This document shows positions 26-57,253 of a stretch of 64,000 nt of DNA, in pieces. Below the pieces are notes generated by a model. The model ran no database searches. It was given only the letters and a program-made list of their open reading frames with translations, and was not told the origin of the DNA. The stretch's first letter is position 1. Each line of letters begins with the position of its first letter. The translations under genes and the position numbers were made by a program. Source of the stretch: Azolla caroliniana (lineage: Eukaryota; Plantae; Polypodiophyta); contig JBHGNT010000021.1 in the NCBI GenBank assembly GCA_043228905.1, positions 4,650,001 to 4,714,000 of the forward strand. Direction: 5' to 3'.

Positions 26-2824
26 ATGCTACGGGAGCTCAAGGTCGGTGGGGACGGTTTTCTACTACCGGCGGAGGAGGACCGGTTTCGGAGGATGCTC
101 GGGAGGCACGGGAAGGCTTTCGCATTCTCACCGGAGGAGATCAGGTGCGTAGACCCGACAATTGTCGAACCGATGGTGATCTTCACGGCACGACATGTAC
201 CGTGGAATCTCAAGCCGATTCCGGTACCGAGAGCTCACATCCCGAAGTTGATGGAGCTCCTGAAGCAAAAGGTGGAGATGGGCATCCTCGAACCATCGAG
301 TGCCCCGTATTCGAATCGGTGGTTTAAGGTGCCGAAGAAGAACAGCACGTTGCACTTCATTCAGGACCTACAACCGGTCAACAAGGTGACCATCCGTAAT
401 GCAGGGATCAGACCGACCATAGACGAGTTCGCGGAGGCCTTCGCTGGAAGGTTGATCTATTCTGTTGGTGATTTGTACTCGGGGTTCAATCAGTTCCAAC
501 TAGCCATGGAAAGCAGAGACATTACGACGATGCGGACTCCTCTCGGCCTAATGCGGATGTGTACCTTGCCACAAGGAGGGACGAACTCAGTGGCTCACAT
601 GGTGAATGCGATGAACAAAGTGCTCAGGGATTGTATCCCGGACATCACCATGCCATTCTTGGACGACATCCCGATCAGGGGATGCCCGGTGGAGAAAAGG
701 GACGAGGCAATCGGGCCGGACGGATGTCGGAACTTCGTGGCGTCCCACATCGATGACTGCGAGAAGGTGATGCGGAGACTAGAACGCGCAAGGCTCACCT
801 TCTCTGAGGAAAAGTCGGCCTTCGGACAGTCGGAGATCTTGGTGGTCGGACACCTGTGTGGGCGTTATGGTAAGAAACCGTCTTTGGCAAAGGTAGAGGC
901 CATCTCCGCGATGAGGAACAATTGCGGGTCGGTCACGGAGGTCCGTAGATTCTTGGTGGCATGCGCGTTCTACCACATCTGGATCCCGCACTACGCACAT
1001 GTCGCGGAACCCCTCTACGGACTATTGAAAAAGGGGCATAGCTTTGAGTGGAGGACGGAGCACACGGAGTCGGTTCGGAGACTAAAGGAGGCGCTTACGA
1101 CAGCGCCGGGTCTCCGTAAAGCGGTTTACGGCAAGGATGTTCCCATCTGCGTAACGGTGGACACCAGACCGATCGGGATCGGGTGGGTAATCAGTCAGGA
1201 GGACAAGGGCGGCGTACGATTCCCGATCCGGTTCAGGGCAAAGTTATTGAGCGAGTGACAGCGAGGGTACACCCAAGTTAAGCGCGAACTTTGGGGTGTC
1301 GTTTCGGCAGTCAAGGCCGACAAGGATTATCTGATCGGGACAAAGGTGATCATCGAGACGGACTGCCTGCCGATACTCGGCATGGTTTCCGGATGCGCGA
1401 CGCCGGACCTAGCAATGCTCCAATGGATAGCGTACATTAAGTCCCTGAACCCGGAGATACGACACATCTCCGGAAAGGACAATGCCATGGCCGACATGCT
1501 TTCGAGGGCAAGGTTCAACGACGAAGACGGCATGGTTTCGGATGACGAAGAAGTCGGCGAGGACTTCTTCGGGTCAGCTAACGTAGCGACGGGGAAAGGG
1601 AACACTCCGGAGCTTAGCGAATTTGACGAAAGCAGATACGACGGGGAGTGGCTCCAAATCGGGAGGTTCCTACGGACGATGACGCCGGACGCAGCATGGG
1701 CGAGAGAGGAGGCGAGCCGGATACAGACGAAGGCGTACCGATTCTTCCTGCGGGACGGGTGCATATGGAGGCACCCAAAGAAGAGAAGTGGCATTCCACT
1801 CCGAGTAGTGGCAAAGAAAGAAGAACAGGGGAAACTACTGGCTGCATTTCACGTGAGCCCCTGGGCCGGACACAACGGAATGTGGGCCACTTTTGGGAAG
1901 CTGAAGGAGAAGTACTGGTGGCCGGGGCTGTACCAGGATGTGCATCGGTTCGTAACGACTTGCAAAAGCTGTCAGATGCACTCCATAGTCCGACACCGGG
2001 ACGAGCTACACCCGACCTACCCTCCTACGGTCCATTTCAAGTGGATGGTGGACTTGGTGACGATGCCGATGGGGGTAGGACAAATGCGATACCTGGTGCT
2101 TGCACGGGAAGACTTAACGAACCAGGTGGAAGGCCTTGCACTGCAAAGCAAGACAACCGCGGCGGTATGCCGGTTCCTGATCGAAGAAGTAGTGTGTCGG
2201 TACAGGTGCGTCGGGAGGATCGTGGCGGACCGGGGAGAGCTGGATGTGCGGGAGGCCGAGGAGCTGTTCGACCGGCTAGGCGTCAAACTCTCCCTCACCA
2301 CGGCGTACAATCCGGAGCGAACGGAAAGGTGGAACGTGGGCACGGACCGATTGTAAAGGCGTTGGTGCGTGCATGTGGTGGGCAGGTCGGGAATTGGCCG
2401 CGACTCCTTCCTTACGCACTATGGGCGGACCGAACTACACACAGTTCGGTGACAGGGTTTACGCCGGCGGAGCTAATGTACGGACAAAAGCCGATCATGC
2501 CGGTGGAGCGGACGGTTTCTTCGTGGGCGGTGGTAGATTGGAAGGACGAAATGAGCCGGGAGGAGTTGTTGGCGGCGCGGATTCGGCAACTCGAGCAGAG
2601 GCCGGAGGACGTGATACAGGCGAAGGAAAGGCTGCGAGCGGCAAGGGAGTCGAACAAGATCCGGTTCAACCGGACGCACCGATTGCGACCAAAGAAGATC
2701 AAGGAAGGCGACTGGGTCTTGGTATACGACAGCAGCCTCGATAATCAGCACAAGGCGGTGTGAAAGTTTGCTAAGAGATGGTTCGGGCCCTACATGGTGA
2801 TGAGCGCGAACGACAACGGCACGT
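26..2824 (+). pseudogene. pol: Ty3 pol (RT-RNaseH-integrase) of element A; stops at 1256 and 2761, frameshift near 2320; C-terminus continues at 8650-8810
   Basis: ORFs 26..1258, 1346..2356 and 1648..2763 carry DLYSGF, LPQG, FLDD, TDCLP, HHCC (H..GH..C..C) and DRG motifs. The reading DNGT|YHLAEL is restored when element B is removed. Confidence 0.92.
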
Positions 2825-3511
2825 TGTCGCGTTGTTACGCGCGTGCGTGGAGAAGGGCGGAACCACGGGGGTCTTGGACTAAGGAGAAGGGGAGAAGGAA
2901 TAGGACTTCGGAATGGAGCTTAGCACAAGAAGAGAAAGAATGAACAAGAGGAAGATGGAGGCCAAATGCTCAACAATATATATTAGAACCGAAAACCGAT
3001 TACAAAATGGCGGCCGCGTAGGCCGCACCAAACGACTATGATAAACCCAAAACCCTAATCCGACGAAGAAGGAAAGAAACCCTAACTAAGGAACCCGAAA
3101 CCCTAAAACGAAATGGTATACCTCACTCACACTCAAAATAAGGCAACCCCCACAATGGTGCTCTTCCTCTCCCTTTATAGCACAAGGAGGGAAGGCCGTT
3201 ACATAAAGGTGCTACAAAATATCCCCCTTTCAATCAATGGGGATATTTCCCTTGATTTTAGGGGAGGTGGGAAGGATGGGTCTTAACTCCCACCTCTACA
3301 CGAACTACTATGTACCTATCTCTCTCTCTCACGTGGATGTGCGCGCAAAAGCACATCACCTTTACACTTTACAAATCCTAAGGTGCATTTCTAGCACCAC
3401 ACTTATCACTATCGACAAATAGAAATACAACATCTTGATGTGCAACGTTGCACATCGCGGGTTTGCTTACTTCGCTCGGTTTTCCGCCTATGGACGAAAA
3501 TCTTCACGACA
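2825..3511 (-). repeat. 3' LTR of element B (687 bp)
   Basis: Direct repeat of 7959-8645; TATA (tttatag on +) at ~3174; three AAACCCTAA telo-boxes. Confidence 0.95.
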
Positions 3512-6500
3512 TCCGCCCCCACCTAACCGCACATCCACCGGTATGTGCCAAAAGGGGAACAAAACGCGAGATTTTCGGCCAAGGCGGCCAACCGAGCCCT
3601 TGACAACCTCGTGGGCTTGCCCGGCTTTGTCTTCCGCTTCGAGCAAGTCCACCCCGTCCACACGAACCACCGTCGCCTTCCGGCCCACCATCTCCACCGA
3701 ATGGTCTCGAACCGTCGGCTCCATCCGATCCGCCACACTTGACAACGTTCGCCGAGTCGTTGCCTCCACCCGATCCGCCACGTCCATCGTGATTCTTTGA
3801 ACCACCGTCTACATCCGGACCGCCGTTTCCGATGCCCGCGCCTTCTTCCCCGATCGGTCCTCCCGAACGCCGTTGCCGACCCGGTTGCTCTTCTTTTGTC
3901 CGCCTCGTATAGCCTCCGGATGCTCTCCCGATCTCTCCGGTTGCACGCCGGATTCCGCCTTTCCCGTGCTTGCCGTGCTCTCTCGCCGTAGAGCATACCA
4001 TCGTTCCCGTGCTCGTTGCTTGGCCCTCATGCGGCCGCATTGCACGTTTCGCATTCCGCTCCTCTTCGCGTACCCTTTCGGAAAGGTACCTTTCTTCCCC
4101 GACCTCCGTTTCGCTCGGAGGAACACCCTCTTGGCCCTCTTGGTCCGCTCGACCGCACACATCCTTCGTGATGTCGTGTTCGTTCTTTTGGGCGCATACA
4201 TCTTCGTTCTCCGCGACCTCCCGTATGCCTCTCTCGGTGCCTTCATCCGTTGTGGCCTTCGTCCCCTCGCCGCCACCGTCCGCCACTCTTGGTCTCACGT
4301 CGGCACTCGCGCCGACCGCCGGAGTCTCTATAGCCGGTGTGGAGGATCCCTCTCGGGCCTTATCTTCGTGGCCGCCGGTCTTAGCCTCTCCGTAGGCCAC
4401 CTCTTCCCACCAATCTTCCCTAGCATCGTGCCAGGTCTTGTCGTCGCCGCCTTCCTCCTCGTATTCGCCTCTCGAAGGCGTGATCCGACCGTCATCTTCG
4501 GTCGCTCGATGTGGCTCCTTCGTAGGCATGCTTGTGTCTTGGCCCTCCATCGGCCGTATTGCATGCATCTCGTCTCGCTCTTCCGCCGTAGATCCGACCT
4601 CCGTGTCGGTCTTCTCCTCCTTTGTCGCCGTAGCCCGTTCCGACGCGGGCTCGCCGTCTTGGACCCACCCGTCCACTATCTCGTACCGGATATCCGTTCC
4701 GGTAACCTCGTACGCTCCGGCCTCCGACTCCTCGCCGCCACCCGCCGTCTCTCCGGTCTTATGTTGATCCGCAACCGCCGTAGTCTCTTGAGTGGGTATG
4801 GAGGGTCTCGTTTGTTTCCGTTTTTCCCCCGAACCATGGTCGTCGTGCCCGGTTAGCCTCCATCTCGCGCTTACCGGCTCCCATCGTAACCGTAACCGCA
4901 ACCGTAACCGGCCAATCGGTCTAGCCGGCTTCCTTCGGTTTGGGCCCGGTTCGCCGGCCCTTACTCTCTTCCTCTTCCGTGCCGTATTCCGGTCGGGTCG
5001 GTTCCCGACTCTCTCCTCGTTTCCGCTCCGGTCCTCTCCGTCGGACCCACCGTATACGCCCATTCCGGGCCCCGCATACTCGTCTTCGTATGCGCTCTCT
5101 CCGGGCCTCACCTTCTCACGGTCACCGCCCATCTCTCCGGTCTCACGTTGGCATTCGAGCGCAACCGCCGAAGTCTCCGGCCCCGGTGTCAAGGGGTCTT
5201 GCCTCCGTCCGCTCCAATCTTCCTTCTCGTTTCCGTTGCCCGCCTTGCCGCCGTCACCTCCCGTCGCACTAAGCCTTATGCCGGCACTCGGTCCGGCCAT
5301 TGGAGCCTCTAGGATTGGTGTGGGTAAGGACCCGGCACCGCCGCTTGTTGTCTCCGTAGCCGCTTTCGTTCGGACGTCGTTGTCCGCGGCTCCCCCATCT
5401 CCGATTCCGTAAGCCTCTAGTATGCTTGCCACCACCTCTTCTTCGCCGTTCTCCGCGTCATTTTGTTTGCCCGCCTTGCCGCCACCACCGCCCGTCGTTC
5501 TAGGTCTCGTGCCGGCACTCGGGCCGACCGCCGAAGCCTCTAGGGCCGGTGTGTGGAAGGTCGCGGCACCACCGCTCGCCTCCTCTCCGCTCGATGTTTT
5601 GGGCCGCCGTGCCCCGAATCTTCCGCCCACTTTCGAAGTGGCGCTCTCCGCTTTGTAGTCACCGGCCTCATCCTTGGCCGTCCATTCGCCGCAAGACGAG
5701 AGGGTTGCTCGCTCCGCACCCTCTCCCATGTCGTCGTCGTTTCGGTTGCCCCCCTTGCCGCCGCCACCGTCCGTCACTCTAGGCCTTTCGCCGGCTCTCG
5801 GGCCGGGTGCCGGAGTCTCTAGGACCGGTGTGTGGAAGGTCGCGACACCACCACTCCTCTCGTCCGTAGCCACCTCCATTCGGACATCGTCGTCCGTGGC
5901 TACCCCGTCTTCGGTTTCGCAAGCATCGAGTATGCTTGCCGCCGCCTCTTCTTCGCCGGTCTCGTCCTCATTTCGGTTGTCCGCCTTGCCGCCGCCACCG
6001 TCCGTAGCTCTAGGTCTCGTGCCGGCACTCGGGCCGACCGCCGAAGCCTCTAGGGCCGGTGTGTGGAAGGTCGCGACACCACCACTCCTCTCGTCCGTAG
6101 CCACCTCCATTCGGACATCGTCGTCCGTGGCTACCCCGTCTTCGGTTTCGCAAGCATCGAGTATGCTTGCCGCCGCCTCTTCTTCGCCGGTCTCGTCCTC
6201 ATTTCGGTTGTCCGCCTTGCCGCCGCCACCGTCCGTAGCTCTAGGTCTCGTGCCGGCACTCGGGCCGACCGCCGAAGCCTCTAGGGCCGGTGTGTGGAAG
6301 GTCGCGACACCGACGCTCGTCTCCTCTTCCTCCTCCATTTCGCAAGCCTCGAGTATGCTCGCGAAATCCTCGTAGAACGTTTCGTGCAACCGCGTCCCGA
6401 AACTTCCGCCCACTCTCGAAGTGGCGTCCATCGCTCCGTAGATATCGGCCTCGTCCATGGCCGTTCTTTTTCCCCGAGATGAGAGGGTCGCTTGCTCCGC

Positions 6501-7916
6501 ACCTTCTCTCATGTCGACGCCGTGGTCGCCCGCCTTGCCACCGCCACCGCCTTTCACCATAGGTCTTACGCGGGCACTCGGGCCGGCCGCCGTGATCTCT
6601 AGGAATGACGCGTGTAAGGTCGCGGGACCGCCGCTCGTCGATGTAATGTCCGTAGCTACCTCCGCTCGGACGTCGTTGTCCGTGGCTACCCCGCCTCCGT
6701 ATATGCAAGCATCGGTTATGCTTGCCGCCGCCTCTTCCGCGGTCTCCTTACCGTTGTCTCGGTTGCCCGCCTTGCCGCCACCACCGTTCTTCTCCCTCGG
6801 TCTCACGCGGGCGCTCGGGCCGGCCGCCGTGGTCTCTTGAACCGGTGCGTGGAAGGTTGCGGTACCGCCGCTTGTCTCCTCCGTACTCGATGATTCGGGC
6901 CACCGTGTCCCGAATCCGCCATGTCCGCTCGAATAGGCGATCGCCGCCTCACCGTCCCCGACCTCGTCCCCGGTCGTTCTTTTCCCCCATGTCGAGAGGG
7001 CGGTTCGCTCCGCACCCTCTCCCGTGGTACCGATGTACCATTCTCTTTCGGCCTCCGCATAGGCCCCGTCCTCCATGTGTGAGGAAGCTCCTTCCTCCGC
7101 GTCCTCCGATCCGCTCGGGCCCGACCCCGCAATAAGCCATTCTTCGGCTTCGATTTTCGCCATTACGAGCCCGCACGCCTCCCGTATTAGCGCTTGTAGG
7201 TCGAGCCCCTCCAAACCGGTTCGCGATGAGCTCTCGTCCGGCGGCATGGCGTAGTCGGTCGTCGCTCTCTCTTCTCCCCCGCTCGCGGGCCGTGTTGTGG
7301 CCGACCGCCTCGCCTCATGTTGCCGACACACCCATTCCACTTCGGGCCACTCCTCGGTGAGACCATGCGCCCCATAATCGTCTTGAAGCTCGAACATGAT
7401 GTCCGTCCTCTCCTCATGATGGACCGTCTCCAAAAATAGGAGGACTTTGTCCGCCCCCACCGATCTTCGTTCCCACTCCGAGAGTTGAGAGAAACGACGC
7501 TCGAACTCTCGGAATGCCTCTATTGCGCTCCGATGGCGCCTCGCCGACGCCACCCACCGATCGAACTCTCGCCGACCTCTTACCTCCGATTCCGCGCACT
7601 CGTATGCCTCCATTAGAGCCCCTTCAAAGGACTCCCACGATTCGTGAGCTTCTTGGAGCTCCTTGACCTCCTCGTACTTTGATGCGGCCGCCGCTCGACG
7701 AAAGAACTCTAGCCTCGTCGCCTCGTCCACGCCCATCCTCGTCATTTCCGCATCGTAGGCTCTCAAAAATTTTGGGACCTCCTTCCCATCGAACCGGCCG
7801 ACTAGACGGACCACCCTTTCGACCGCTTGTTGAGCCGCCTCTCGCCTCGCCCTCTTCCGTCCGGCGTCCATCAAGATCTTTGTCATCATTTCCTCGAAGT
7901 CGAAGCCTTCCTCCAT
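3504..7916 (-). CDS. gag: 1470-aa ORF: gag-like N-terminal ~200 aa followed by a long acidic Gly/Ala/Thr/Glu-rich repetitive region
   Basis: The N-terminus (VGRFDGKEVPKFLRAY...WESFEGAL...FERRFSQL...DKVLLF...GLTEEW) matches gag remnants at 48190-48765 and 54344-54880. The ORF starts just after the PBS and stops inside the 3' LTR. Confidence 0.75.
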   Translation of the reverse strand: MEEGFDFEEMMTKILMDAGRKRARREAAQQAVERVVRLVGRFDGKEVPKFLRAYDAEMTRMGVDEATRLEFFRRAAAASKYEEVKELQEAHESWESFEGALMEAYECAESEVRGRREFDRWVASARRHRSAIEAFREFERRFSQLSEWERRSVGADKVLLFLETVHHEERTDIMFELQDDYGAHGLTEEWPEVEWVCRQHEARRSATTRPASGGEERATTDYAMPPDESSSRTGLEGLDLQALIREACGLVMAKIEAEEWLIAGSGPSGSEDAEEGASSHMEDGAYAEAEREWYIGTTGEGAERTALSTWGKRTTGDEVGDGEAAIAYSSGHGGFGTRWPESSSTEETSGGTATFHAPVQETTAAGPSARVRPREKNGGGGKAGNRDNGKETAEEAAASITDACIYGGGVATDNDVRAEVATDITSTSGGPATLHASFLEITAAGPSARVRPMVKGGGGGKAGDHGVDMREGAEQATLSSRGKRTAMDEADIYGAMDATSRVGGSFGTRLHETFYEDFASILEACEMEEEEETSVGVATFHTPALEASAVGPSAGTRPRATDGGGGKADNRNEDETGEEEAAASILDACETEDGVATDDDVRMEVATDERSGGVATFHTPALEASAVGPSAGTRPRATDGGGGKADNRNEDETGEEEAAASILDACETEDGVATDDDVRMEVATDERSGGVATFHTPVLETPAPGPRAGERPRVTDGGGGKGGNRNDDDMGEGAERATLSSCGEWTAKDEAGDYKAESATSKVGGRFGARRPKTSSGEEASGGAATFHTPALEASAVGPSAGTRPRTTGGGGGKAGKQNDAENGEEEVVASILEAYGIGDGGAADNDVRTKAATETTSGGAGSLPTPILEAPMAGPSAGIRLSATGGDGGKAGNGNEKEDWSGRRQDPLTPGPETSAVALECQRETGEMGGDREKVRPGESAYEDEYAGPGMGVYGGSDGEDRSGNEERVGNRPDRNTARKRKRVRAGEPGPNRRKPARPIGRLRLRLRLRWEPVSARWRLTGHDDHGSGEKRKQTRPSIPTQETTAVADQHKTGETAGGGEESEAGAYEVTGTDIRYEIVDGWVQDGEPASERATATKEEKTDTEVGSTAEERDEMHAIRPMEGQDTSMPTKEPHRATEDDGRITPSRGEYEEEGGDDKTWHDAREDWWEEVAYGEAKTGGHEDKAREGSSTPAIETPAVGASADVRPRVADGGGEGTKATTDEGTERGIREVAENEDVCAQKNEHDITKDVCGRADQEGQEGVPPSETEVGEERYLSERVREEERNAKRAMRPHEGQATSTGTMVCSTAREHGKHGKGGIRRATGEIGRASGGYTRRTKEEQPGRQRRSGGPIGEEGAGIGNGGPDVDGGSKNHDGRGGSGGGNDSANVVKCGGSDGADGSRPFGGDGGPEGDGGSCGRGGLARSGRQSRASPRGCQGLGWPPWPKISRFVPLLAHTGGCAVRWGRMS
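5820..6310 (-). repeat. 231-bp (77-aa) near-perfect tandem duplication within the element B ORF, plus diverged copies between ~4250 and 6870
   Basis: The peptide ATFHTPALEASAVGPSAGTRPRATDGGGGKA... is repeated; + strand ORFs 5832..6053 and 6063..6284 are identical. Confidence 0.9.
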
Positions 7917-7936
7917 CTCTTTCTCCCTTGCCGCCT

Positions 7937-7954
7937 TTCACGTCGGGTTCACCA
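7937..7954 (-). promoter_or_regulatory. Primer-binding site complementary to the 3' end of tRNA-Trp
   Basis: The - strand reads TGGTGAACCCGACGTGAA, 4 nt after the LTR; plant tRNA-Trp ends TTCACGTCGGGTTCACCA. Confidence 0.85.
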
Positions 7955-7958
7955 AAGA

Positions 7959-8645
7959 TGTCGCGTTGTTACGCGCGTGCGTGGAGAAGGGCGGAACCAC
8001 GGGGGTCTTGGACTAAGGAGAAGGGGAGAAGGAATAGGACTTCGGAATGGAGCTTAGCACAAGAAGAGAAAGAATGAACAAGAGGAAGATGGAGGCCAAA
8101 TGCTCAACAATATATATTAGAACCGAAAACCGATTACAAAATGGCGGCCGCGTAGGCCGCACCAAACGACTATGATAAACCCAAAACCCTAATCCGACGA
8201 AGAAGGAAAGAAACCCTAACTAAGGAACCCGAAACCCTAAAACGAAATGGTATACCTCACTCACACTCAAAATAAGGCAACCCCCACAATGGTGCTCTTC
8301 CTCTCCCTTTATAGCACAAGGAGGGAAGGCCGTTACATAAAGGTGCTACAAAATATCCCCCTTTCAATCAATGGGGATATTTCCCTTGATTTTAGGGGAG
8401 GTGGGAAGGATGGGTCTTAACTCCCACCTCTACACGAACTACTATGTACCTATCTCTCTCTCTCACGTGGATGTGCGCGCAAAAGCACATCACCTTTACA
8501 CTTTACAAATCCTAAGGTGCATTTCTAGCACCACACTTATCACTATCGACAAATAGAAATACAACATCTTGATGTGCAACGTTGCACATCGCGGGTTTGC
8601 TTACTTCGCTCGGTTTTCCGCCTATGGACGAAAATCTTCACGACA
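7959..8645 (-). repeat. 5' LTR of element B (687 bp)
   Basis: Direct repeat of 2825-3511; followed by the PBS on the - strand. Confidence 0.95.
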
Positions 8646-10734
8646 ACGTACCACCTCGCGGAACTCTACGGGACATGGTTAGCAGTGCCGGTGGCCGGAA
8701 AGCGGATCAAAGCATTCAAAAAGCGGTTCGAAGACGAGCCGGAGTCTACGAGCCGGAGCGACAACGACGATCAGTTCGGGTCCGACGGAGAATCGGAGAG
8801 CAACGAGTGAGGCCGGGTTTCTTCGATATCTACCCATCTCTGGCGCATACCGGTGGATGCGCGGTTTGGTGGGGGTGGATGTCGTGAAGAAAACTGGCCA
8901 TAGGCGGAATCGGAGAGAAAGCGCATAAACCGGCCCTTACACTGATGGACGCGTGACTTGGTATTTTGTACACGAATCGGTGGAGATAAATACTAAGCCG
9001 CACACATTTAGTAGGGGCGGTGTTACCTCGTACGAGATGTACGGAGAGTCAAGTGTGATGAGTGAGGGTCGAATGTTATCCTGATGTTGTGTATGTGTAG
9101 GGGGTATAAATGTAGTTGTGAGTCTATACGTATGTGAACACATGCACACGTGTGTGCACGTGGATGGATACGAGGAGGTATGAGTGACTGTCCAATATGA
9201 ATGCTCAATGGGGCTTACACCCCTATGTATCTACCCCCTTTTGTACTATTTAACCTCTTATGGGGAATGAATGAAATATGAATAACCATTTCTCTCTCAA
9301 TCTCTCTCTCTCTCTCATCATCTCTCTCTCTCTTCCCTCTCCTTAACGTTGAACCCCCTTGGGAGGGGGGTGGAGCCATTCTAGGCACCACCCCCCACCC
9401 CACAATGCTTCTCAATGCACATGATCTCTCTAACCATCAATCCCATACTCTCCATCATCATCATAACCACCATGTCTATCTTTATCATGATTATCATCGT
9501 CCTTAACCCTGACCCTAAAATCATATAACACCTTTTGGCGACCACTAAGGCGACCCCCCTTTGGAGACGGAGTCCAAGAATGATACGCGGCGATGCAAGA
9601 AAAGTGACAAATGATGGCGATGATGTGCAAGAATTGACAATATGTACAAGTGAGTGAGAAATTGAAGATTGACAATGTATTCATCACAAAACGAGGAATC
9701 GATGAATCGACAAAGAAGTGTTCAACATCCCTAATCCATGTTTAGTTATAAGCAGAGACAAATATATCCTCTGATGTGTGTTAAAGTAGAGACAAATTTG
9801 TCAACAGTTTACAAGTTAAAGCACAAATGTGTCTCCTCATTATCACCATTTCAATCATCATCATCCTCATATCCACCTAGATCATTCTTAACGAAGAGGG
9901 AGAAGATGATGATCATGATGAAGGCGAATATGAACATGAAATGTTGCACGTGGTTCAGGCAATTATGCTTGGTTGACAAAGACAGTGAAGGACGAAGAAA
10001 TAAACCCACAACCAAATAGAGATGTCAATTGAAGGGCCCGAAAGAAAGTAATGGTCGTACGGCCAGAAGGACCGAATAGAGCCGAAGACAAAAACGGTTA
10101 GACACAACCGAACCACGGCCAAAACGGAGGCCGGAAGAATGCCCGGATAGTGATGATTGAATAGAGCGGCCATGCAACTGGAGGCTGGCCGGACAGGGCT
10201 GGTGATGACGAGAAAGGCGTTAGGAATGGTCACCACCAACCGACAACAGCCGGAGCGGAGCGGTCGGAATGGTCGGATAACGGCTGAAGAGCGGCTGGAA
10301 TGGCCGAACAACGGCTAAAGAGTAGCCAGGCAACAGTCAGAACGGTTGGAGTGGCCGGATAGTGGCTGAACAACAGCCGGAGTAGCCGGACAAAGGAAAA
10401 AAACAGTCGGACAAGCGGCCAGACGAGAAGACACGGCGTCAGAGCGACAGCGGCCAGACCAATGGCGGGACAACAGACAATAGTGACAACCAGAACAGCC
10501 ATGAACAACGGCCGAAACAACAACAAAGACACTGCTAAACCATGGAGGTGTCAGAACCAAGGATAAAAGATAGAGTGATGGAAGAAGGATAGAGAAGAAT
10601 GGATGTAGAAGATAGAGAAAGAAAGAGAATGGATACAAGATATGTAATGAGAGCTAAAGACTGGTGTTGATTCGAATTGATTTGAGAATACATGTATGCG
10701 CTTATTTATAGGTTCCTATAGAATAGCTTAGAGA

Positions 10735-18491: not shown

Positions 18492-18495
18492 ACGT

Positions 18496-35442: not shown

Positions 35443-35478
<36 letters not shown>

Positions 35479-35702: not shown

Positions 35703-35757
35703 TGATCTAATGGTCAAGAGCTCGACCCATATAACCTAAGGTCATAGGTTCGAGTCT
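35703..35757 (+). promoter_or_regulatory. tRNA-like A/B-box cassette in the element G LTR (also 46348-46402)
   Basis: TGATCTAATGG at 35703 and GGTTCGAGTCT at 35747 (44-nt offset), with AAGGTC before the T-arm. Confidence 0.65.
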
Positions 35758-35764
35758 TGCCATA

Positions 35765-44730: not shown

Positions 44731-44756
44731 CCAAACGGCTCCTATTTTGGCTGGAC

Positions 44757-45908: not shown

Positions 45909-46086
45909 GGGATGAAAGAAAAGAGGAATAAAAGATTAGTAGGAAATGAGAGAGACAGAAGGTAATAAAATTGGTTCAAACTGTCAGGAACAGTACTGAG
46001 ACAGAGAAGGAATTAGTACTAAAAGAAGGATTAGTACTATGAGAGGTGTAGAACTTCTTCGAGAGAAGGAAGAAGTGAGCAAGACG

Positions 46087-46119
<33 letters not shown>

Positions 46120-47280
46120 TGATGATAAGAAAGATATGTATTATATGAAGAGAATATACAATGGTGGCTAAAAGGCTTAAGACTGGCGTGGAACCAATTT
46201 GGTTCAACATAATGCCTAGTGCCCTCTTTTATAGTGTTTTCAGTAGTAATCCTGAAGCTTCTAGAATGTTCCAGAGAAATGTGGAATATACACTAATTTC
46301 CTATAATAAAATGTAAATGAAAATAATATCCTACGTATTACAATAGATGATCTAATGGTCAAGAGCTCGACCCATATAACCTAAGGTCATGGGTTCGAGT
46401 CTTGCCATATCATGACAGATACAATGTATCGAGTTCGTATTGAAAAAACAGAGTTTTAAACATGAACTCAACACGCCGTATCGAGTTCACGTTTTAAGTT
46501 TTATTTCGGATTTTATTTTAAAAAAGAATTACATTTTTTTCTATTTTATTTTGGTATTTTGTTTTTTTATTTATTTAAAATTTGACCTTTAATAAGTGAT
46601 GAAAAAAGAAGAGTTTTTATCACAAGTCGATACAATGTATCGAATTCATGTTTAAAATTATTATTTTCTTCATAAAAAATAAAAATAAATCAAAAAAATT
46701 GAAAAATAATAATAATAAATTGAAATTTTTTTGAAAAATTTACTTTAAACATGAACTTGATACATTGTATTGAATTGTGATGAAAAATCTGGTTTTTCTA
46801 TCATCTAAAGCTTAATTTATTTTTATTATTATTATTATTTAAATACGGTAAAAAAAACTTTGAGCAAGAATTCAATACATTGTATGGAATTATGATGAAA
46901 AATCTATTTTTTACATCAACTTGATACAACATATCGAGTTAATGTTTGAAATCTTGTTGGTTTTCAAATAAAAGAGGTTTTTTAAACATGAACTTGAATC
47001 GTACTAAAATCTTTGTTTTTACAAGAGAAAAAGATGCATATCGATAGTGCAAACAAGGTTGTTGTACAATAAGATACTTTATGGTGAATATGTGCATCAT
47101 TGATTAACAAAAAACAATTAATAATTGTGTTGATGGTAATTGAACCTTGCAAATGCCATTTACACGGCCCATAAAGTGTTTGTGTGGTTCTCAATCACTA
47201 CTTAATGTTGATCTTTATAGTTGGAACGAAGGATGACAACACAAGCATAACTCAGGTGACAAGGAAACTTGCAAGAAGTC

Positions 47281-47621
47281 AAGGTGGGGATATTAATAGC
47301 TACACATGTAGATGGTCGTGACCTGAGGTACCAATTCTGCATTGGTAAAGTTTTGGACGTGATGATGCATTAAACCTTTGTAATACATCTATCATTGACA
47401 TTAATGAGGTGGATATCATTATGTATAACTTTACACAGACAAAAGTTGGATGTTTAAGGACAACAACAATATACATAATAAAAGAGATATTAGCAAGTCT
47501 AGAAGATATCTTAGATTGAAGGCGAAGAAGATTTATTGCACACAATTTGGAGATACCATTTGGTGAAGACAATGATTTGATTGGTACATTGGAAGATGAG
47601 GAGAAAGAGTCACAATTGTAA
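47281..47621 (+). pseudogene. Possible transposase C-terminal remnant inside the DNA transposon
   Basis: Protein-like fragments KVGILIATHVDGRDLRYQFCIGKV and IDINEVDIIMYNFTQTKVGCLRTTTI in an otherwise AT-rich non-coding element. The assignment is from recollection only. Confidence 0.35.
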
Positions 47622-48009
47622 ATTATCGAGTCATGCAAATAACTCCCAAATGTATTTGTTGTGCAACTATATGTAACAAATTTAGACAACATTTTATCGA
47701 ATGGAATAAAAACGTTCATTGTTTTGAAATCTTCTACTTTCGATTTCTTTAAGATCTAAAAACTTATTAGTTGTCATTTTTCTTTAAAAATCCACAAAGT
47801 TACTTTTCGTATTTGACCCAAATTTGACATTTTTCAATTTCACCAAATGGTGAAAATTTTAACTTTTTCAGCAAGTTTTGGAGAACATGTGATACTAGTA
47901 TCAAGATGTTTTGTGAAATGGCAAAAAAAACTCCAAAATCAAACAGAATATTCCTTATCCTTCAACTTGTGCGTAATCCTTCCACTTTGTGAACGCAAAC
48001 GTGTTTTCT

Positions 48010-48765
48010 CTTAAAGTAAATTCTACCTTACTATTTAATATTCTTGTTTCTAGTACCTTTTTTATATCCATCGTTGTTTCTATGTCTGAAGACAGCTTGA
48101 AAGATGGGCCTGTCTTCCTTCCTCTCTGGCAGCTCCATAAACCATAACTTTCTTTTACAGAAATGGGCGCAAGCCCTTTTCACCTCCTCCTAGTCTTTGG
48201 TAAGTCCATTCGGACTATTATGATCTTCTAGAAGCATTCCCAAGTCTTTCCTATCTTTAATGTTAGTAGCTTGTAGAAACAACATTATTTTATCTAGCAT
48301 TATTATGTTTCTATCCCTAACATTTAATTGCTCAAATCTTTTTGAAAACTCTTTTAACACTTCCAAAACACATAATTGTTTATCAGACTCTACCCAATCC
48401 ATGAAAGCTCGCCTTATCATCCTTGACATATCGTTGAGGTTGTATTCATTCAATAATGCTCTTTCGAAAGTCGCCCATGTCTGATGCTCCCTCTATAGCT
48501 CTTGGATCCTCTCTTGTAGCCCAATCACAGCGACTCGACTAAAGCTATTAATTTTTGCAACTTCGTCGACACCACGTTTAAGCATTTCTTCATTGTAAAT
48601 CTTCAAAAATCTTGTTAAATTTATACCTTCAAAGATTTCTACTTGAGCAAGAATATTGTTGATGACTTTGTCGATGGTTGCCATCATCCCTTGCTCTCGC
48701 ATCATTCGTTCCACCATCGTACACATAAGCCTCATTTGCTCCTCCATTTCTCCTTGTCGCCGCAT
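48010..48765 (-). pseudogene. gag: gag of element F (stops, internally deleted)
   Basis: FEGINLTRFLKIYNEEM, FSKRFEQL...DKIMLFL...GLTKD; similar to the B N-terminus. Confidence 0.8.
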
Positions 48766-49440
48766 TCACGTCGGGTTCACCAAATGTGTCGGGGTAGTTG
48801 TGGTTTGTGCGGTGAAGTCACAGGGACTAACGTTAAGGGGAGTTGAAGGAACTTTTATAACTCTTGTACACAAATGTTAGGAAGATTAAGGCTAAGAAGA
48901 ATAAGAGTTTAAAGTAATGTGTGTGAGAGAGCGACGGGTATAGATAAAAAATAAAGGCAATGTATGATTCAAGAAGCAAGATAGAGACAAAGTATGATTT
49001 AAGAAAAAAAAACATATGATATGAAAATGATGTATATTACGAATACAAGATTTTACCAACTTTACAATGCTTGATAGCAATATGAACTCTTTCTCTACCG
49101 GCTCTTGATTCGAACCCTTAACTCCAACTTTGAAACACGAGCCTCTTCCCCAACAAGCTAACTTATTTGTTTAATTATATTATTCTCTAACTTTTCTCTT
49201 GATTGATTCCCCTCTTGTTTTCCTTGCCCCTCTTTATATAAGTATTGTCATGCATATTGTAATGTGTGGGAGTATGGTATGCATGCAATGCATGACTTTC
49301 ATGTGATGCATGATCGTCATTTGGCGTACATGCATTACATGTGATGCATGATAGCCATCCTCCTAATTTGAGCTCTCATGTATGAAAATAGATATAGGAT
49401 AAATACAATGATGGAAATGTGTCTTTTAAAACAAATAACT

Positions 49441-49631
49441 TAGCTTAGTGGTGTATACCTTGTGCTTGGTATACAAGGTTGAGGGTTCAAGTTTCTCAAT
49501 TTTACTCCATACAACATTTAGCTTCATTCTTATATTATGAAGCATATTCTTTAGAATACCTTTAAAAATAAATAGCCTAGCCTAGGGGTATGTATATTGT
49601 ACTTCATATATAAGGGTGTGGGTTCAAGTCT
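49441..49631 (+). promoter_or_regulatory. Two tandem tRNA-like A/B-box cassettes in the F 5' LTR (one copy, 29223-29276, in the 3' LTR)
   Basis: TAGCTTAGTGG at 49441 with GGTTCAAGTTT at 49484; TAGCCTAGGGG at 49578 with GGTTCAAGTCT at 49621. Unit 1 has stems CCTTGTG-7nt-TACAAGG and TTGAGGG-TTCAAGT-TTCTCAA. Confidence 0.7.
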
Positions 49632-52600
49632 TTCAAATACTACTAAATACAATATTTAACTTCATTTTTATATTGTGAAGCACATTCTTCACGACAATGT
49701 GCCAAAAGTGGATCGGGCTGGCGAAACATCCCATGCCGGAGTGAAGGGGGAGATTGTTGGGAAATCGGTCCCTCCGGATGGGATCCGATTATGGATGAAG
49801 AGGACCTAGTGAGAACCAGAAGAGATCCAGAAACCGGATCGGATGGACCCGGTGAAAACCGAAAGAGAAGACAAATTTGTAAATATGTTTTCAGTAAGCC
49901 AATTGAGGCTATATTTGTAAATAGCCCTAAGTTCATATAAGTATAAATATGGCTTAAGGCAATCACTTTGTAAGGTTGTTGTCATATTGTTGTATGTGTA
50001 TAACTGTTGTATAGAGAGAGCGAGAGAGTAGATACAGATCGATACTCTGTTGTAACCGTCGCTCAGCGAAGAAACAAAGCTCGAGGTCATTGCCTCCGAG
50101 TCTCTGATTGTACCTTTCTCATATAGTGAAGGTTTGGAGTTTGTGGGTTCCCGTGGTTTTTCACTATTAGGGTTTTCCACGTAAACATCCTGTGTACTCT
50201 TTATTGTTCGTGTGCGTATGCGTACCAATCTCCAACCCCATTTCTATGTTTGATTCTCATCGACAAGTGATTGAAGACTTGGTTGTGGCTGAGCAATATT
50301 ACGCACTATTTCTCTACAGGAAGGCATCTCCATGGATCCAACTAAGGTCAAAATGGTGGTAGAGTGGCAGACTCTGCATTCGTTGTGAGATGTGCAATGC
50401 TTTTTAGGCTTTGCCAATTTCTACTGCAAGTTTATACGAGATTACTCAAAGCTTGTTCTGCCTCTCACACAACTCACCAAGAAGGGACAATCGTTCGTTT
50501 GGTCTGAAGAAGCAGACATTGCTTTTGAGAATCTTAGGAAGGCATTTACATCAGCTCCTATTCTGGCTCATGTTGATTTGGAAAAACCATTCATCATCGA
50601 AGCAGACGCATCGGATTTCGCGTTGGGTAGCATTCGGTCACAACAAGGCGATCACAAAAAGCTCCATCCTGTGGCTTTCCACTCACGCAAGTTTGACGCC
50701 GCCGAAATCAACTATGAAACTCATGATAAGGAGCTATTAGCAATAGTGGACTCTTTTACGCAATGGGATCTTCTCATCAAGTCACAGTATTTAGTGATCA
50801 AAAAAATCTTGCCTATTTTCAAAATGCTCGTGTGTTAAATTGACGTCAAGCTCGGTGGGCCCATTTCCTCACTCGTTTGGACTTCAAAATTACATATCAT
50901 CCGGGGAAGCAACAAGGGAAGGCAGATGCATTATCACGACACTCATATCTAGCACCGCGTCCTGGTGAGCCAGCTTTCGATAACCAAAAGCAAGTAATCT
51001 TGGGACGAGCACGACTGCAAGCAACGCAGGTCTTCGGTATGCCCTTGGATTCCCACGTTATCGATACCATACATGAGTACTTGAAGACAGATGTTTTCAC
51101 CCAAGCCATTCTAGCACAAATTGATCCCTCTCGAGCATCTTGTTCACTATCGACAATTCGAATGTCATGATGGATTACTATTCTTTAAGAAACTCTTGTA
51201 TGTTCCTAATGGTTCTTGTCGCCATTGAGTAGTCCAAAACTGTCATGACACATATACAACTAGGCATTTTGGTAGTACTAAAACATTAGATTTAGTACAA
51301 TGATCATTCTGGTGGCACCATATGCGACAATTTGTCGAAGATTTTGTTCGGACTTGTGATACAGATTGTAGAGCAAAAATGCCAAGGCATCATCCATATG
51401 GTTTATTAGAACCATTACCAATTCCAAGCAAGCCGTGACAATCCATTGCTCTAGATTTCATCACAGATCTTCCGGTCTCTAAGGGATTCGATGCGAAGTT
51501 AACAGTAGTAAATCGATATATGAAGATGGCCCATTTCCTACCATGTACTAAGGAAATATCCAGTGAGGAAACCACTGAAACTGTCATGCGTGAAGTATGT
51601 CGGCATCATGGCCTTCCTGATAATATCATCAGTGACTGTGGACCCCAGTTCGTCTCGAAATTCTGGAAGCACCTCTTTAAAATGCTCAAAGTCACTTGTA
51701 ACCTCTCCTCCGGCTACCACCCACAAATAGACGGCCAAGCAGAACGAACAAATCTATTAGAGATCTAGGTACTAAAGTAAGCTTAAGATAAGGATAAACT
51801 AATGATAAATAGAAAGGAGAAAGAGAAAGAAGGGTGTCGATCCACCCAACCACCCCCGAGCGAAGGGATCGAGACGAACTCGAGTGCGTCCCGTACCACC
51901 GTTGTGGCGTCGAGTCGTACCTAGTGCTGGTGCGCTCGCTACAAGAGTTGACCCACCACAAGAGCAGAGTCTCGATGTAGTCAAAAGATGATCAAATGAG
52001 GGTAGCTAGGCCTCTTATTTATAGCGATACCTAGGCCCCCAGGCAAGTTCACACTTGACCTAATGGGTTGTCTCAATCCCGAGGATTAAAAGTAATCATC
52101 CCCTTCTTTACACTCTCGTTTAACCCTCACACTTATCCACGTGTATAGAATACTACGGTAAATTCTCACCACGGGATATTAAGTAGTCATGCCCGTAACA
52201 TACTCCCCTTCTTTAAAACATTGCACTCTTGCAATGGAAAGTTAGGGAAGTTTGTTCTTAGAGTATTCTCGCGTTCCCATGTGGCATCTTTGATAGATTT
52301 GTCCATCCATTTAATTTTAAATTCTCGGATTTCTTTAGTACGTAACTTTTTTGTTTTAACATCGAGAATTCTTTCTAGTACATGTGGTTTCGAAGATAAA
52401 TCTTCAGAAGTAACCAGAGTTTCAGTTGTAACTGTGTTGTCGCTAGAACCTAGAAGTTCTTTTAGACGACTCACATGGAAGACTGGATGAATTCCAACAC
52501 CATCGGGAAGAGCGAGACGATAGGCTGATGACCCAATGCGTTTGAGGACTGTAAAAGGTCCACAAAACCGTGGGGCTAACTTAGCGCACTTACCCGTAGA

Positions 52601-53858
52601 CAATGTCTTAGAATTGTGAGGTACACATAAAAATACCTTCTGTCTAGGGTTGAATACACGAGGTGGCCTATGATGGTCGGTATAAAAACGCGCTCTATCT
52701 TGAGCAGTTTTTATATTATCTCATGCAATATGCAACATATCTTGCATGTCCCGAAGAAAGTTTTGTGTACTTCGCAACTCATCATGATGTATATTAACAT
52801 CAATCGGGGCTCGTGGCTGAAAACCATACATCAACATAAAAGGACTATATCCCGTCGACGTATGCTTGGAGCTGTTATAAGCAAACTCCAAAATTGGGAG
52901 ATAATGTTCCCATTTTGTTGGTTTTGCACCAACGTATGCTCGAAGCATGTCCTCAATAATTTGATTTACTCGTTTTATCTATCCATCGGATTGAGGATGA
53001 TCCGTGGAGCTCATGCTCAACATAGTTTCTAACTTCTTAAAGACTTGCGTCCAGAAGTCACTAGTAAACTTTGGATCTCAATCACTCACGATATCCATCG
53101 GTAACCCATAAAAACGAAATAATTCGTCAACGAATTGGTAAGCTAATTCAGGAGTTATTACCGTGGTTTTAGTAGCCATAAATCTGGCCATTATAGTTAG
53201 TCGATCAACGACAACCCATATGGCATCATGACCTTTTTGGGTGCGAGGAAGGCTAACAATAAAATCCATGGATATACTTTCCCACTTATTATTGGGAATG
53301 TCCAAGCGATGTAAAAGTCTTGCGGCCTTAAGTCGCTCGGCTTTGTTAACCTAACACTGGTGACATTTAGTCACATTGCTATGTATGTCAGGACACATCT
53401 TAGGCCAATAAAATTGAGTGGAGATGAGAACGAGTGTACGATGTATTCTAGGGGGTGCCCTGCTGAGGGTGCATCAAGGCATTCAAAAAGAATCCTCTTT
53501 TTGACCTCCGGTAAATCTGGAACACAAACCTTGCCATTACAGTAGAGCAAACCGTTAGGAATGTGGAAGTATTCCTTCAAGGATGTGGTGGTGTCTGTTC
53601 AGGACTCAACTCTTGCCTAGTATTTTGCAAAATAACTGTCATCAGGATACTTTCCTCGAAGGTGATCATAAAGATCTTATGTTATTTCAGTGAAGCTAAG
53701 CATGTTAACTTCATGGATGCGACTTAGTGCATCTACGTCAGTGTTCATGGAACCTTTACGATATCGTATGGAAAAATCAAAGTCCTGGATGAGATTAGCC
53801 CATCGTGCCTTACGACCTTTCAGGTCTTGTTGGTCACAAAAATATTTCAAGGACTCGT

Positions 53859-55645
53859 TGTCGCGTTGTTCCGCACGTGCGTGGGGAACAAGGCAGGACC
53901 ACCGGGGTCTTGGACAGAGAAATAGCTGAGAAGGAGGAGAGCGGAAAGGCCACGGACACACTTGCACACACAAACACGGGAGCACACAGGAATCACAGTC
54001 CAAAGACACAACAACACGAGATGACTAGAAGTCCGAGTATATGAACACGTATGTATATTAATATATATATATATATATATATATCGAGACGGTTACAACT
54101 AACAGGCCGGCAAAGCGAACGCCGCCGCCTGTTCACTCACACACACAAAAGAGCGAGATGGAGACTTTGCCGGAAGCACACAGGCTTCCCACGGAGCAGA
54201 GTCAGCCTCCCGAAAACCCTGCGCAAAAATGGCTATGGAGAGTGGCAGAGGAGAAGGGATTGGTCCCAATCCGGCAGCACTTCGTCCTCTTTAACCCACT
54301 CCCCTCGTTTGTCGAAACGGCCACAGACTCTCTTCAGCACAGCTTAGTCGGCCGTCAGTCCGTCATCAGTCTCCAGCAGGAGACCCACTTGCTCCCGGTC
54401 CCTCGCATCCACTGACTTAACGAACAACAGGACGCGACTTGTGTCTAGTATGGTCCAATCGAGCGCCGAAAGACGCGCAAAGCGTTCTTCAAACTCCCGG
54501 AGGAGCACCAACGCGTTTCTCCCCTTTTCGGGGGTCTCTACCCATTCCATGAAGTCCCTTTTTTAGGGCCGAAGCGCGTCATCAAGCCCGTATTTCTCAA
54601 AGAGCCGACCTTCAAACTCTTCCCAGGTCCAGCTCTCAGCCCGTACCTCGAGCACCTCTGCATGGTGGCCTGGCATCGCCAACCGAGGGAATCCGGTCAG
54701 TCGCCTTTCTTCCGGAATGTCTCTCATTACCATCTCGCCCGGTACGCCTCCAAATAGCTCGTGGTGTCCTTCCCAACGAACCGGCCTATCGTGTCGACGA
54801 CCGCTTCAATAGCCCTATTGAGGGCGCCTGCGCCTTCGCGCGCACTCACCATCCCATCCACAGCCGAAGCCATGGCTTCCGCGAGATCCGACCCCCTCAT
54901 CTTTCTATTCCTCTACCGCCCGTTTCACGTCAGGTTCACCAAATATGTCGCGTTGTTACGCGCGTGCATGGGGAATGAGGTGGGACCACCGGGGTCTTGG
55001 ACCGAGAAATAGCTGAGAAGGAGGAGAGCGGAAAGGCCACGGACGCAGTTGCACACGCGCAAACACGGGAGCACACAGGAATCACAGTTCAACGACACAA
55101 CAACACGAGACAACTAGAAGTCTGAGTATATGAACACGTATGTATATTAATATATATATATATATCGAGATGGTTACAACTAACAGGCCGGCAAGGTGAA
55201 CGCCGATGCCTGTTCACTCACACACATAGAAGAGCGAGATGGAGACTCTGCGGGAAGCACACGGGCTTCCCACGGAGCAGAGTCAGCCTCCCGAAAACCC
55301 TGCGCAAAAATGGCTATGGAGAGTGGCAGAGGAGAAGGGCTCGGTCCCAGTCCAGCAGCACTTCATCCTCTCTAACACGCATCCCCCTTTTCCCCATTCC
55401 TCTCCCTCTCTTTTATAGCCCAAGGAGGGAGGTCGTTATCATCTGTTACATCATATTAATTCTCTGTCCTTTCGGACAGAGATACACCTCGATTCGCTCC
55501 TTATTGAATGCATGCTACCTAGGATTTCCTCTCAACCGACTTGTACCTACCTACTTACTTTACAACGAAAAGTGTGCTCGCGTGTAAGGGCCGGTTTACA
55601 CACGCTAAACTCGGTTTCCGCCTAGGGATGGTTTTCTTCACGACA
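53859..55645 (-). mobile_element. Element K: deleted Phygy-like element (5' LTR 54946-55645, Trp PBS, gag stub, truncated 3' LTR 53859-~54295)
   Basis: TGTCGCGTTGTT...TCTTCACGACA termini as in A and B; PBS 54924-54941; TSD TCGT/TTGT; host TDH|ESLKY restored. Confidence 0.88.
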
Positions 55646-57253
55646 TTGTGGTCCGTAGTTACCACAAAGCGATTTCCATAAAGATAATGGCGCCATGTTT
55701 TGAGCGCATTTATAACTGCAAATAATTCCTTTTCTTGAACGGTATACCGACATTGAGCAGAATCAAGTTTCTTACTCTCGTGCTATTGGTTTACCACCTT
55801 GATACAAGACAACACCTATAGCATAATCGCTTGCATCAGTTTTGACCTCAAAAGGTTTTGAAGGATCAGGTAAAAGAAGTGAAGGAGCCTTGCAAACCAG
55901 GTCCTTGAGTTCCTTAAAGCCGAGGTCTAGTGTAGCATTCCACACTATAGGTTTTGTAGACTTACGTGTTTGACCTTTTAAAAGATCAGTAAACGGCGTC
56001 GTCAATTGGGAATAATTACGAAGAGACTTTCGCAAAAACCCGACAAAACCAAGGAATTATCGAACTTCTCGAATATTCCAAAGAGTGAGCCAAAGCTTGA
56101 TTTTCTCAATGTGAGAAGGATCAATTTCAACTCCTCATTCGGTTATGAGATGTCCTAGATTGGTAATTGATTTCTTGAAGAACTCACATTTTGAGATCTT
56201 CGCATAAAACTATTTGTCACGCAATGTTTGTAAAACAAAGCGGACATGTCTAGCATGTTCTTTTAATGTACGGCTATAAACTAAAATATCATCCAAGAAA
56301 ATAACAACAAATTTTCCAAGTTGTTCTCGGAAAATGTCATTCATTTCTTGTTGAAAAGTAGCCGGACCATTGGTCAAACCAAAAGGCATAACCAAAAACT
56401 CGTAATGGCCATAACGCGCACGAAATGCCATTTTAGGAACATCGTCCTCACTTATTCGTATTTGATGGTAGCCAGTACGGAGATCAAGTTTTGTAAAATA
56501 CCGAGCTCGCTGGAGACGGTCAATTAGATCGTCAGCCCGGGGCAATGGGTACGAATTCTTGATCGTCACTTTATTCAAGCGTCGATAATTAATACACATA
56601 CGCCATGTGCCCTCTTTCTTTTTAACCAAGAGAACCGGTGCACCCCATGGAGATTTACTATAACGTATATAACCCATTCGTAAATAGTCCTTGAGTTGCT
56701 TAGATACCTCATCTTCTTCGGATCGACTTAAGCGATATGGAGGTATACTTATTGGTGCAACACTAGGTACAATATCTATACGATGGTCTATATTACGTTT
56801 AGGAGGTAACCCATCAGGTAGTTCACTTGGAAAAACATCATGAAAATCATTTAAGATTTCATCAAGTTGTTGTTGTTCAAAAAATGTTAATTGAACCGGG
56901 ACATTATCGATATTGTAAATGTGAATGTTCGGATCAAGTACACAATAAAATAATGTAGAACAAGACAACTCGAATTTTGATGAACACGAGGAAACAATCG
57001 AGAGGGATTGTTTTTTGATACATGGAATAAAATGCGTACAATCGTTTAGTACAAAAGAAATGGAATGGCGAACCCAATCAATAAATAAAGAAGAGTTTTT
57101 ATTATAAAACCAGGGATAACCCAGTATTACATCGGTGGTACAAAGATTCATTACATGGAAGTCTACTTCCTCTATATAAGTATCAATAGAAATTCCTAAT
57201 TATTGAATTGCCCCGTTGATGTATTGTAATCTTCCATCAGCCAAATGCACCGT

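What the first reader, a model, noticed from the sequence alone, without database searches (positions are those of the whole stretch)
2821..57253. All six Trp-type (Phygy-like) insertions target a CpG-centred 4-mer
Seen: target 4-mers are ACGT/ACGT (B), ACGT (A, right flank only), ACGG/ACGG (solo LTR), GCGT/ATGT (F), TCGT/TTGT (K) and CCGT (L, left flank only). Each is NCGN, mostly NCGT, and the central mismatches are CpG>TpG decay. The 5-bp TSDs of the chromoviruses and copia here (GGAGG, GATAC, AGATC, AAATC) show no such bias. Inference: this chromodomain-less integrase reads (methyl-)CpG directly, an alternative way of targeting heterochromatin and other transposons. n=6 is small.
Basis: partly seen in the sequence, partly recalled or inferred. 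Interest (0 to 1): 0.7.

Follow-up and report, generated by a model that had tools for sequence, protein, structure and literature searches.

The report
Known Phygy-type CG-centred insertion preference
A group of plant jumping genes inserts almost only at 4-base sites with CG in the middle, a preference already published for the Phygy lineage; their integrase likely reads the CG sequence itself, and nothing found here shows that the CG must be methylated.

Summary
All six tRNA-Trp-primed Ty3/gypsy insertions in the window sit at NCGN; A's missing left copy (ACGT) lies just upstream of the window. For the B-type LTR end, 300 of 349 outer junctions read NCGN (86%) against 4.2% background CG. 39 of the 49 exceptions are TG or CA, and in 22 of 23 resolved cases the other flank still has CG, so about 99% were NCGN at insertion (extrapolated). 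F-, A- and L-type families agree; a chromovirus control gives 4 of 37. The preference is not new: Neumann et al. 2019 list '4 bp (100%) (NCGN)' and tRNA-Trp for Phygy. Added here: the site is closer to VCGB (T before or A after the CG is avoided), with almost no signal outside the 4 bases. The methyl-CpG idea is unsupported: the integrase has no methyl-reader domain, and target flanks are repeats no more often than random CpGs are (106 of 128 vs 121 of 150). Best reading: sequence read-out of a bendable palindromic CG step, which steers insertions into CpG-rich transposons as a by-product. No methylation data were available. Two look-ups in the scan's notes showed no earlier report of this.

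The parts
2821..2824 (.). Left target copy of B, ACGT
2825..8645 (-). Element B: Trp-primed element without pol; 687-bp LTRs 100% identical; PBS reading down from 7954, PPT next to 3512; one 1477-aa frame with no Pfam hit; inserted in the integrase 3' end of A
8646..8649 (.). Right target copy of B, ACGT
1..2820 (+). Element A pol (RT, RNase H, integrase), broken by frame changes, a stop and B; element starts upstream of the window at G000:C21:4646780
8650..9020 (+). Element A: end of integrase, PPT (8868-8879) and first part of the 3' LTR (8880-9020)
18016..18491 (+). Element A: rest of the 3' LTR, split by another element at 9021-18015
18492..18495 (.). Right target copy of A, ACGT (left copy ACGT at L145:6776-6779)
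23826..25501 (+). Duplicated fragment holding A's 3' end, LTR and right flank; same insertion event, not an independent site
25045..26023 (-). Solo LTR 25049-26019 with ACGG on both sides, inside a copia element
28529..49700 (-). Element F 28533-49696 with nested elements; flanks GCGT (28529-28532) and ATGT (49697-49700); LTRs 86% identical; Trp PBS reading down from 48782
53855..55649 (-). Element K 53859-55645, internally deleted; flanks TCGT (53855-53858) and TTGT (55646-55649); Trp PBS reading down from 54941
57250..58680 (-). Lone LTR L 57254-58680 with left flank CCGT (57250-57253); right target copy lost with a 25-bp deletion

Best explanation
These tRNA-Trp-primed, chromodomain-less Ty3/gypsy elements insert at a 4-bp site with CG at its centre, as published for Phygy, and their integrase likely selects that site by reading the CG sequence in its target-binding groove, probably without needing methylation. 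Shown: 4-bp duplication, CG at positions 2-3, avoidance of T at position 1 and A at position 4, two-fold symmetry, almost no signal outside the 4 bases, later CG decay, no tethering or methyl-reader domain. Inferred by analogy with foamy virus: a two-fold symmetric intasome cuts with a 4-bp stagger and kinks the central pyrimidine-purine step. Because TA, TG and CA steps are bendable too but are not used, base-specific contacts on both strands are also needed; candidates (untested) are the conserved L-D-N-Q-H loop of the C-terminal SH3-like domain and Glu171, which aligns with PFV Ala188. Inferred consequence: CpGs in this genome are concentrated in repeats, so reading CG alone shifts insertions into other transposons.
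For: B-type 300 of 349; F-type 86 of the first 100 of 226; A-type 32 of 38; L-type 17 of 20 distinct outer junctions among 29 loci; background CG 4.2% in 20 unselected 10-kb stretches. 13 of 13 paired copies with LTRs 99.7-100% identical have the same NCGN on both sides. 22 of 23 resolved exceptions have CG on the other flank. Information 1.2-1.7 bits at positions 2-3, at most 0.12 bits at each of 10 positions outside. T at position 1 in 5 of 176 and A at position 4 in 5 of 176 CG sites vs 33% of background CpGs; mCG is reported as largely context-independent in four angiosperms (PMC5221884, abstract), so this bias is unlikely to mirror methylation. No Chromo, MBD or SRA hit in 7 integrases at E<=0.1. 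Sequence and fold are closest to PFV and Ty3 integrases. Flanks repeated in 106 of 128 targets vs 121 of 150 random CpGs (p 0.76) and 88 of 150 random positions. ZAM integrase binds CGCGCg in vitro (PMC2527525, abstract).
Against: No methylation data were seen, so methyl-dependence is not excluded; most CpGs in repeats are probably methylated, which makes the repeat test weak. The random CpGs come from only 20 stretches and are not independent. Targets lie in Trp-type elements less often than random CpGs do (19 of 108 vs 109 of 300, nominal p 3e-4), so insertion is not simply proportional to present CpG density. None of 22 low-repeat flanks showed a host-gene Pfam hit (37 frames from 20 of the 22 loci; 6 loci had transposon domains), so no insertion in a likely unmethylated gene was shown. 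The model is of modest quality (pLDDT 67.5, pTM 0.47), holds no DNA, and the loop was not mapped residue by residue on PFV Arg329. The loop is only one residue longer than in chromovirus and Ty3 integrases.
Confidence: 0.7

Rival explanations
1. The integrase requires or strongly prefers methylated CpG, and so uses DNA methylation as its heterochromatin signal in place of a chromodomain.
For: Near-absolute CG centre; 83% of flanks are repeats and no host-gene flank was found; about 11% of target CGs have decayed to TG or CA, which shows methylation after insertion. [quoted passage not shown]
Against: No excess of repeat flanks over random CpGs or over the chromovirus control (23 of 29); no methyl-reader domain; decay after insertion says nothing about the state before it; avoidance of TCG and CGA is not expected from context-independent mCG (PMC5221884, abstract; angiosperms only).
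Confidence: 0.17
2. The choice is pure shape read-out: CG is the step that best takes the sharp kink needed for a 4-bp stagger, with no base-specific contacts.
For: PFV and other 4-bp integrases favour a central YR step (PMC6784120, passages; PMC4422553, abstract); the commonest sites here alternate purine and pyrimidine (ACGT), in the same register as ATAT of the Drosophila Idefix clade (PMC3276498, passages).
Against: TG and CA together are three times as common as CG in the background (13.6% vs 4.2%) and are YR steps, yet only 1 of 23 resolved exceptions has CA on both sides; no junction of 349 has a TA centre.
Confidence: 0.08
3. A host CpG-binding protein tethers the intasome to CG sites.
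For: Tethering is common for retroelements (PMC5408687, passages); the integrase has an acidic 30-residue tail of unknown role.
Against: The CG sits exactly between the two cut sites with no signal outside; a bound tether would be expected to cover the site or set an offset (inference).
Confidence: 0.04
4. The bias is an artefact of small numbers, LTR-end assignment or CpG-rich surroundings.
For: Target surroundings are CpG-rich (50-69 CG per kb).
Against: 300 of 349 even against the richest background stretch (7.5%) gives p about 1e-279; LTR ends are fixed by exact patterns and both flanks match in 13 of 13 young pairs; chromovirus junctions in similar surroundings give 4 of 37.
Confidence: 0.01

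Closest known systems
Phygy (non-chromovirus Ty3/gypsy; Neumann et al. 2019, PMC6317226; passages and supplementary file 3 read)
   Same: 4-bp TSD with NCGN preference, tRNA-Trp PBS, no chromodomain, no extra RNase H, pol filling the internal region.
   Different: Described as specific to Physcomitrella patens and 7.7-10.0 kb long; here the pol-bearing copies measured are about 6.9-7.6 kb, the genome is 523 Mb with about 45% GC in 20 stretches, and related integrases occur in liverworts (Riccia, Calypogeia). The paper gives no mechanism and no VCGB refinement in what I read.
TatI (same paper, supplementary file 3)
   Same: 4-bp TSD and tRNA-Trp PBS.
   Different: TatI carries an archaeal-type RNase H (100%); no second RNase H was found here; no sequence preference is listed for TatI.
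Drosophila errantiviruses ZAM/Tirant (CGCG), gypsy (TATA), Idefix (ATAT) (PMC5408687 and PMC3276498, passages; PMC2527525, abstract)
   Same: Ty3/gypsy integrases with 4-bp palindromic, sequence-specific targets; ZAM integrase binds its CG-rich site directly.
   Different: ZAM's CGCG has GC at the centre and needs a longer site; here only the central CG is fixed and the register matches ATAT.
Prototype foamy virus intasome (PMC6784120, passages; PMC4422553, abstract)
   Same: 4-bp stagger, central YR step, best structural and sequence match of this integrase.
   Different: PFV has a weak YR bias and its base contacts (Ala188, Arg329) flank the centre; here the centre is nearly invariant CG and Glu stands at the Ala188 position.

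Membership tests
Phygy | Ty3/gypsy domain order RT-RH-INT with no chromodomain | tested here: met
   integrase ends 66 residues after the GPY motif
Phygy | No additional archaeal-type RNase H | tested here: met
   No second RNase H family at E<=1 in 8 pol frames; Pfam only, no dedicated aRH profile
Phygy | tRNA-Trp primer binding site | tested here: met
   PBS in B, F, K, A and L-type copies matches the 3' end of genomic tRNA-Trp(CCA) genes, 5 of 5 loci
Phygy | 4-bp TSD, NCGN | tested here: met
Phygy | Length 7656-9968 bp (descriptive range) | tested here: inconclusive
   A is about 6.9 kb without its nested inserts; other paired copies about 7.0-7.6 kb; slightly shorter than the P. patens range
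Phygy | Placement in the Phygy clade with REXdb reference domains | not testable with these tools
   No Phygy reference sequence came from any call; the tree groups the Trp-type integrases near liverwort proteins but is poorly resolved and has no reference
TatI | Archaeal-type RNase H in the polyprotein | tested here: not met
Chromovirus | Chromodomain at the integrase C terminus | tested here: not met
   found in the window's other elements
Methyl-CpG readers (MBD, SRA) | Recognisable methyl-DNA-binding domain | tested here: not met
Methyl-CpG readers (MBD, SRA) | Preference for methylated over unmethylated CG | not testable with these tools
   No run was listed with a bisulfite or long-read library (libraries not on record)

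The most novel reading that the evidence does not exclude
The Phygy-type integrase reads 5-methyl-CpG inside its target-binding groove and so aims at silenced DNA without a chromodomain or host tether: an integrase whose cutting site is itself an epigenetic sensor, kept from mosses to liverworts.
Probability: 0.17. Interest if true: 0.75.

Novelty: new member of a known kind. Interest (0 to 1): 0.3.

Why it matters
The trait is known, but in the papers found it is one sentence and one table cell with no mechanism. A plant integrase with about 99% selectivity for a central CG, and clear rules at the two neighbouring bases, is a clean system for asking how an intasome reads the bases between its cut sites, and whether plain CG reading is enough to keep a large transposon family inside other transposons. 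If methylation mattered, it would be a third route to heterochromatin targeting beside chromodomains and host tethers.

Tried and rejected
1) Ten exceptions in the first 100 B-type junctions looked rich in CAG/CTG (CHG), which would have hinted at methyl-C reading; the full set of 49 is dominated by ACAT/ATGT and most resolved cases have CG on the other flank, so this was dropped. 2) 25 of the 49 exceptions could not be paired within 10 kb, and one (L069) is an altered inner junction; five of the 23 resolved pairs also differ at an outer base, so their pairing is less sure. 3) Search for insertions in host genes: no host Pfam hit; uninformative because selection removes such insertions. 4) Solo-type LTR family: the pattern found only the window's two copies. 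5) Copia control: only 5 junctions, 0 with CG at the matched place. 6) Sequencing runs: no RNA holder listed and no library labels. Contigs of 4 runs laid on 1800-9000 show a joint that skips B in 2 runs, reading ACAT, at high depth; these are most likely other A-family copies and not the empty allele. Among fetched loci the same site reads ACGT in 6, ATGT in 3 and ACCT in 3 uninterrupted copies. 7) Integrase tree poorly resolved, long branches. 8) Literature searches: (NCGN + retrotransposon: 3 papers, only PMC6317226 relevant); none showed a mechanism or a methylation test for Phygy; subscription journals are mostly not covered. PMC12810828 (passages) was irrelevant; PMC6911290 (passages) confirms 4-bp TSDs for Phygy and nesting into Tcn1. 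Additional file 1 of PMC6317226, with per-element TSDs, was not among the passages seen and may already show the VCGB bias.

Full report
Setting. The window is G000:C21:4650001-4714000 of a 523-Mb plant genome, probably a moss or another non-seed plant (inferred from the element types and from liverwort proteins being the closest named integrase relatives; not identified). It is a nest of LTR retrotransposons.

The six sites. B (2825-8645, minus strand, identical 687-bp LTRs) has ACGT on both sides. A's 3' LTR is split by another element (8880-9020 and 18016-18491) and is followed by ACGT; its 5' LTR lies upstream of the window at L145:6780-7397, with ACGT before it and a Trp PBS after it. The ACGT after 24645 is part of a duplicated fragment of the same event. 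The solo LTR 25049-26019 has ACGG on both sides. F has GCGT/ATGT and K has TCGT/TTGT; uninterrupted host copies read GCGT or GCAT for F and TCGT for K, so the right copies have decayed, F's at two positions. L has CCGT on the left and has lost the right copy with 21 host bases. Six of six at 4.6% CG is about 1e-8. The PBS matches genomic tRNA-Trp(CCA) genes in 5 of 5 loci tested.

Genome-wide test. A 26-base B-type LTR end occurs 777 times. Requiring a non-A base just outside the 4-mer removes the PBS-side junctions, and also the outer junctions with A there, and leaves 349. Of these 23 lack C at position 2 and 26 have C but lack G at position 3, so 300 of 349 (86%) read NCGN. In 30 unfiltered loci 14 of 17 outer junctions read NCGN. 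Background CG is 4.2% over 20 unselected 10-kb stretches, range 1.0-7.5%. 39 of the 49 exceptions are TG or CA. The other flank was found for 23: 22 have CG and one is CCAG on both sides; one further exception is an inner junction and 25 stayed unpaired. Extrapolating gives about 99% NCGN at insertion. Thirteen of 13 paired copies with LTRs 99.7-100% identical, chosen by similarity to B's LTR, carry the same NCGN on both sides. Other Trp-type families agree: F 86 of the first 100 of 226 (counted by eye), A 32 of 38 (one row probably an inner junction, two rows one event), L 17 of 20 distinct junctions. A chromovirus family has CG at the matching place in 4 of 37 (p 0.07 against 4.2%) and anywhere in the 5-mer in 6 of 37, as expected by chance; a copia family has 0 of 5.

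Shape of the motif. In 80 left and 76 right flanks the information lies in positions 2 and 3 (1.2-1.7 bits), with 0.3-0.5 bits at positions 1 and 4 and at most 0.12 bits outside (the right-flank set includes a few false ends). T at position 1 and A at position 4 each occur in 5 of 176 CG sites against 33% of background CpGs. The site is thus a symmetric VCGB, most often ACGT.

Integrase. A natural open integrase frame (L110) has a zinc finger, a core and an SH3-like C-terminal domain, and 7 such proteins show no chromodomain or methyl-reader family. It is closest to PFV and Ty3 integrases by sequence and fold (model pLDDT 67.5). Asp168 aligns with PFV Asp185 and Glu171 with Ala188; Glu171 is kept in 37 of 38 aligned rows, and Gln341 and His342 of the C-terminal loop in 29 and 28 of 30. 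In PFV the target is kinked at a central YR step and Ala188 and Arg329 make the base contacts (PMC6784120, passages). That this loop corresponds to the Arg329 loop is my inference and was not mapped.

Methylation. No methylation data were available. Indirectly, target flanks match other fetched loci in 106 of 128 cases, random CpGs in 121 of 150 (p 0.76), random positions in 88 of 150 (p 1e-5) and chromovirus flanks in 23 of 29. CG reading alone therefore accounts for the shift into repeats. The test is weak: the random sets come from 20 stretches, and repeat CpGs are probably mostly methylated. One result runs against simple proportionality to CpG density: targets lie in Trp-type elements in 19 of 108 cases against 109 of 300 random CpGs; age order of insertions or clustering of the control may explain it, untested. 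No insertion in a recognisable host gene was found. Decay of the target CG shows methylation after insertion only.

What is known. Neumann et al. 2019 state that Phygy elements have an insertion preference for NCGN (passages) and tabulate 186 elements with '4 bp (100%) (NCGN)' and 81% tRNA-Trp. The elements here meet the Phygy features that could be tested, lack the extra RNase H of TatI, are slightly shorter, and could not be placed against reference sequences. Sequence-specific 4-bp targets are known for Drosophila gypsy, Idefix and ZAM groups, and ZAM integrase binds CGCGCg in vitro (abstract). My searches found no mechanism or methylation test for Phygy.

Verdict. The additions are the near-absolute selectivity after allowing for decay, the VCGB rule, and the finding that CpG density explains the nesting in repeats. 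Sequence read-out by the integrase is the likeliest mechanism (0.7); methyl-CpG reading remains possible (0.17) and is directly testable. Interest 0.3.

Noticed in passing
window 9021-18015: A 510-bp-LTR element has a tRNA-primer-like TGG site inside both LTRs (TGGCGACC at about 9536 on +, TGGCACGCCC near 17500 on -) and no obvious purine tract; it resembles the 'second tRNA site in place of the PPT' notes on this genome. Its target duplication is unclear (GGCGG/GGATT).
   Followed up: no
window 3504-7937 (-): Element B holds one 1477-aa open frame, gag-like at the start and then low-complexity repeats, with no Pfam hit and no pol; such copies are young and numerous.
   Followed up: partly
G000:C16:4989495-5105657 and C8:17796786-17823371; L136: Tandem arrays of tRNA-Trp genes and variants; a Trp-type element is inserted at ACGT inside the C16 array.
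   Followed up: partly
window 18016-19544 and 23826-25501: A 95% identical duplication of A's 3' end, its flank and part of the solo LTR, separated by a region with an RT-like frame and strong GC skew.
   Followed up: partly
window 25044-25048: Another LTR end (…CATGACA) lies one base from the solo LTR's ACGG, so two elements inserted 1 bp apart; its 5-base flank GACGG contains CG.
   Followed up: no
window 1-8645 vs 28533-49696: A/B-type elements are very CpG-rich (83-103 CG per kb) while F-type has 17-18 per kb, yet both target CG.
   Followed up: no
P0012, P0013, P0041, P0044, P0050, P0079, P0096, P0105: Riccia and Calypogeia proteins are related to this integrase (37-57% identity) and P0096 keeps the L-D-N-Q-H loop, so the lineage may not be limited to one moss; their target sites were not checked.
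   Followed up: partly
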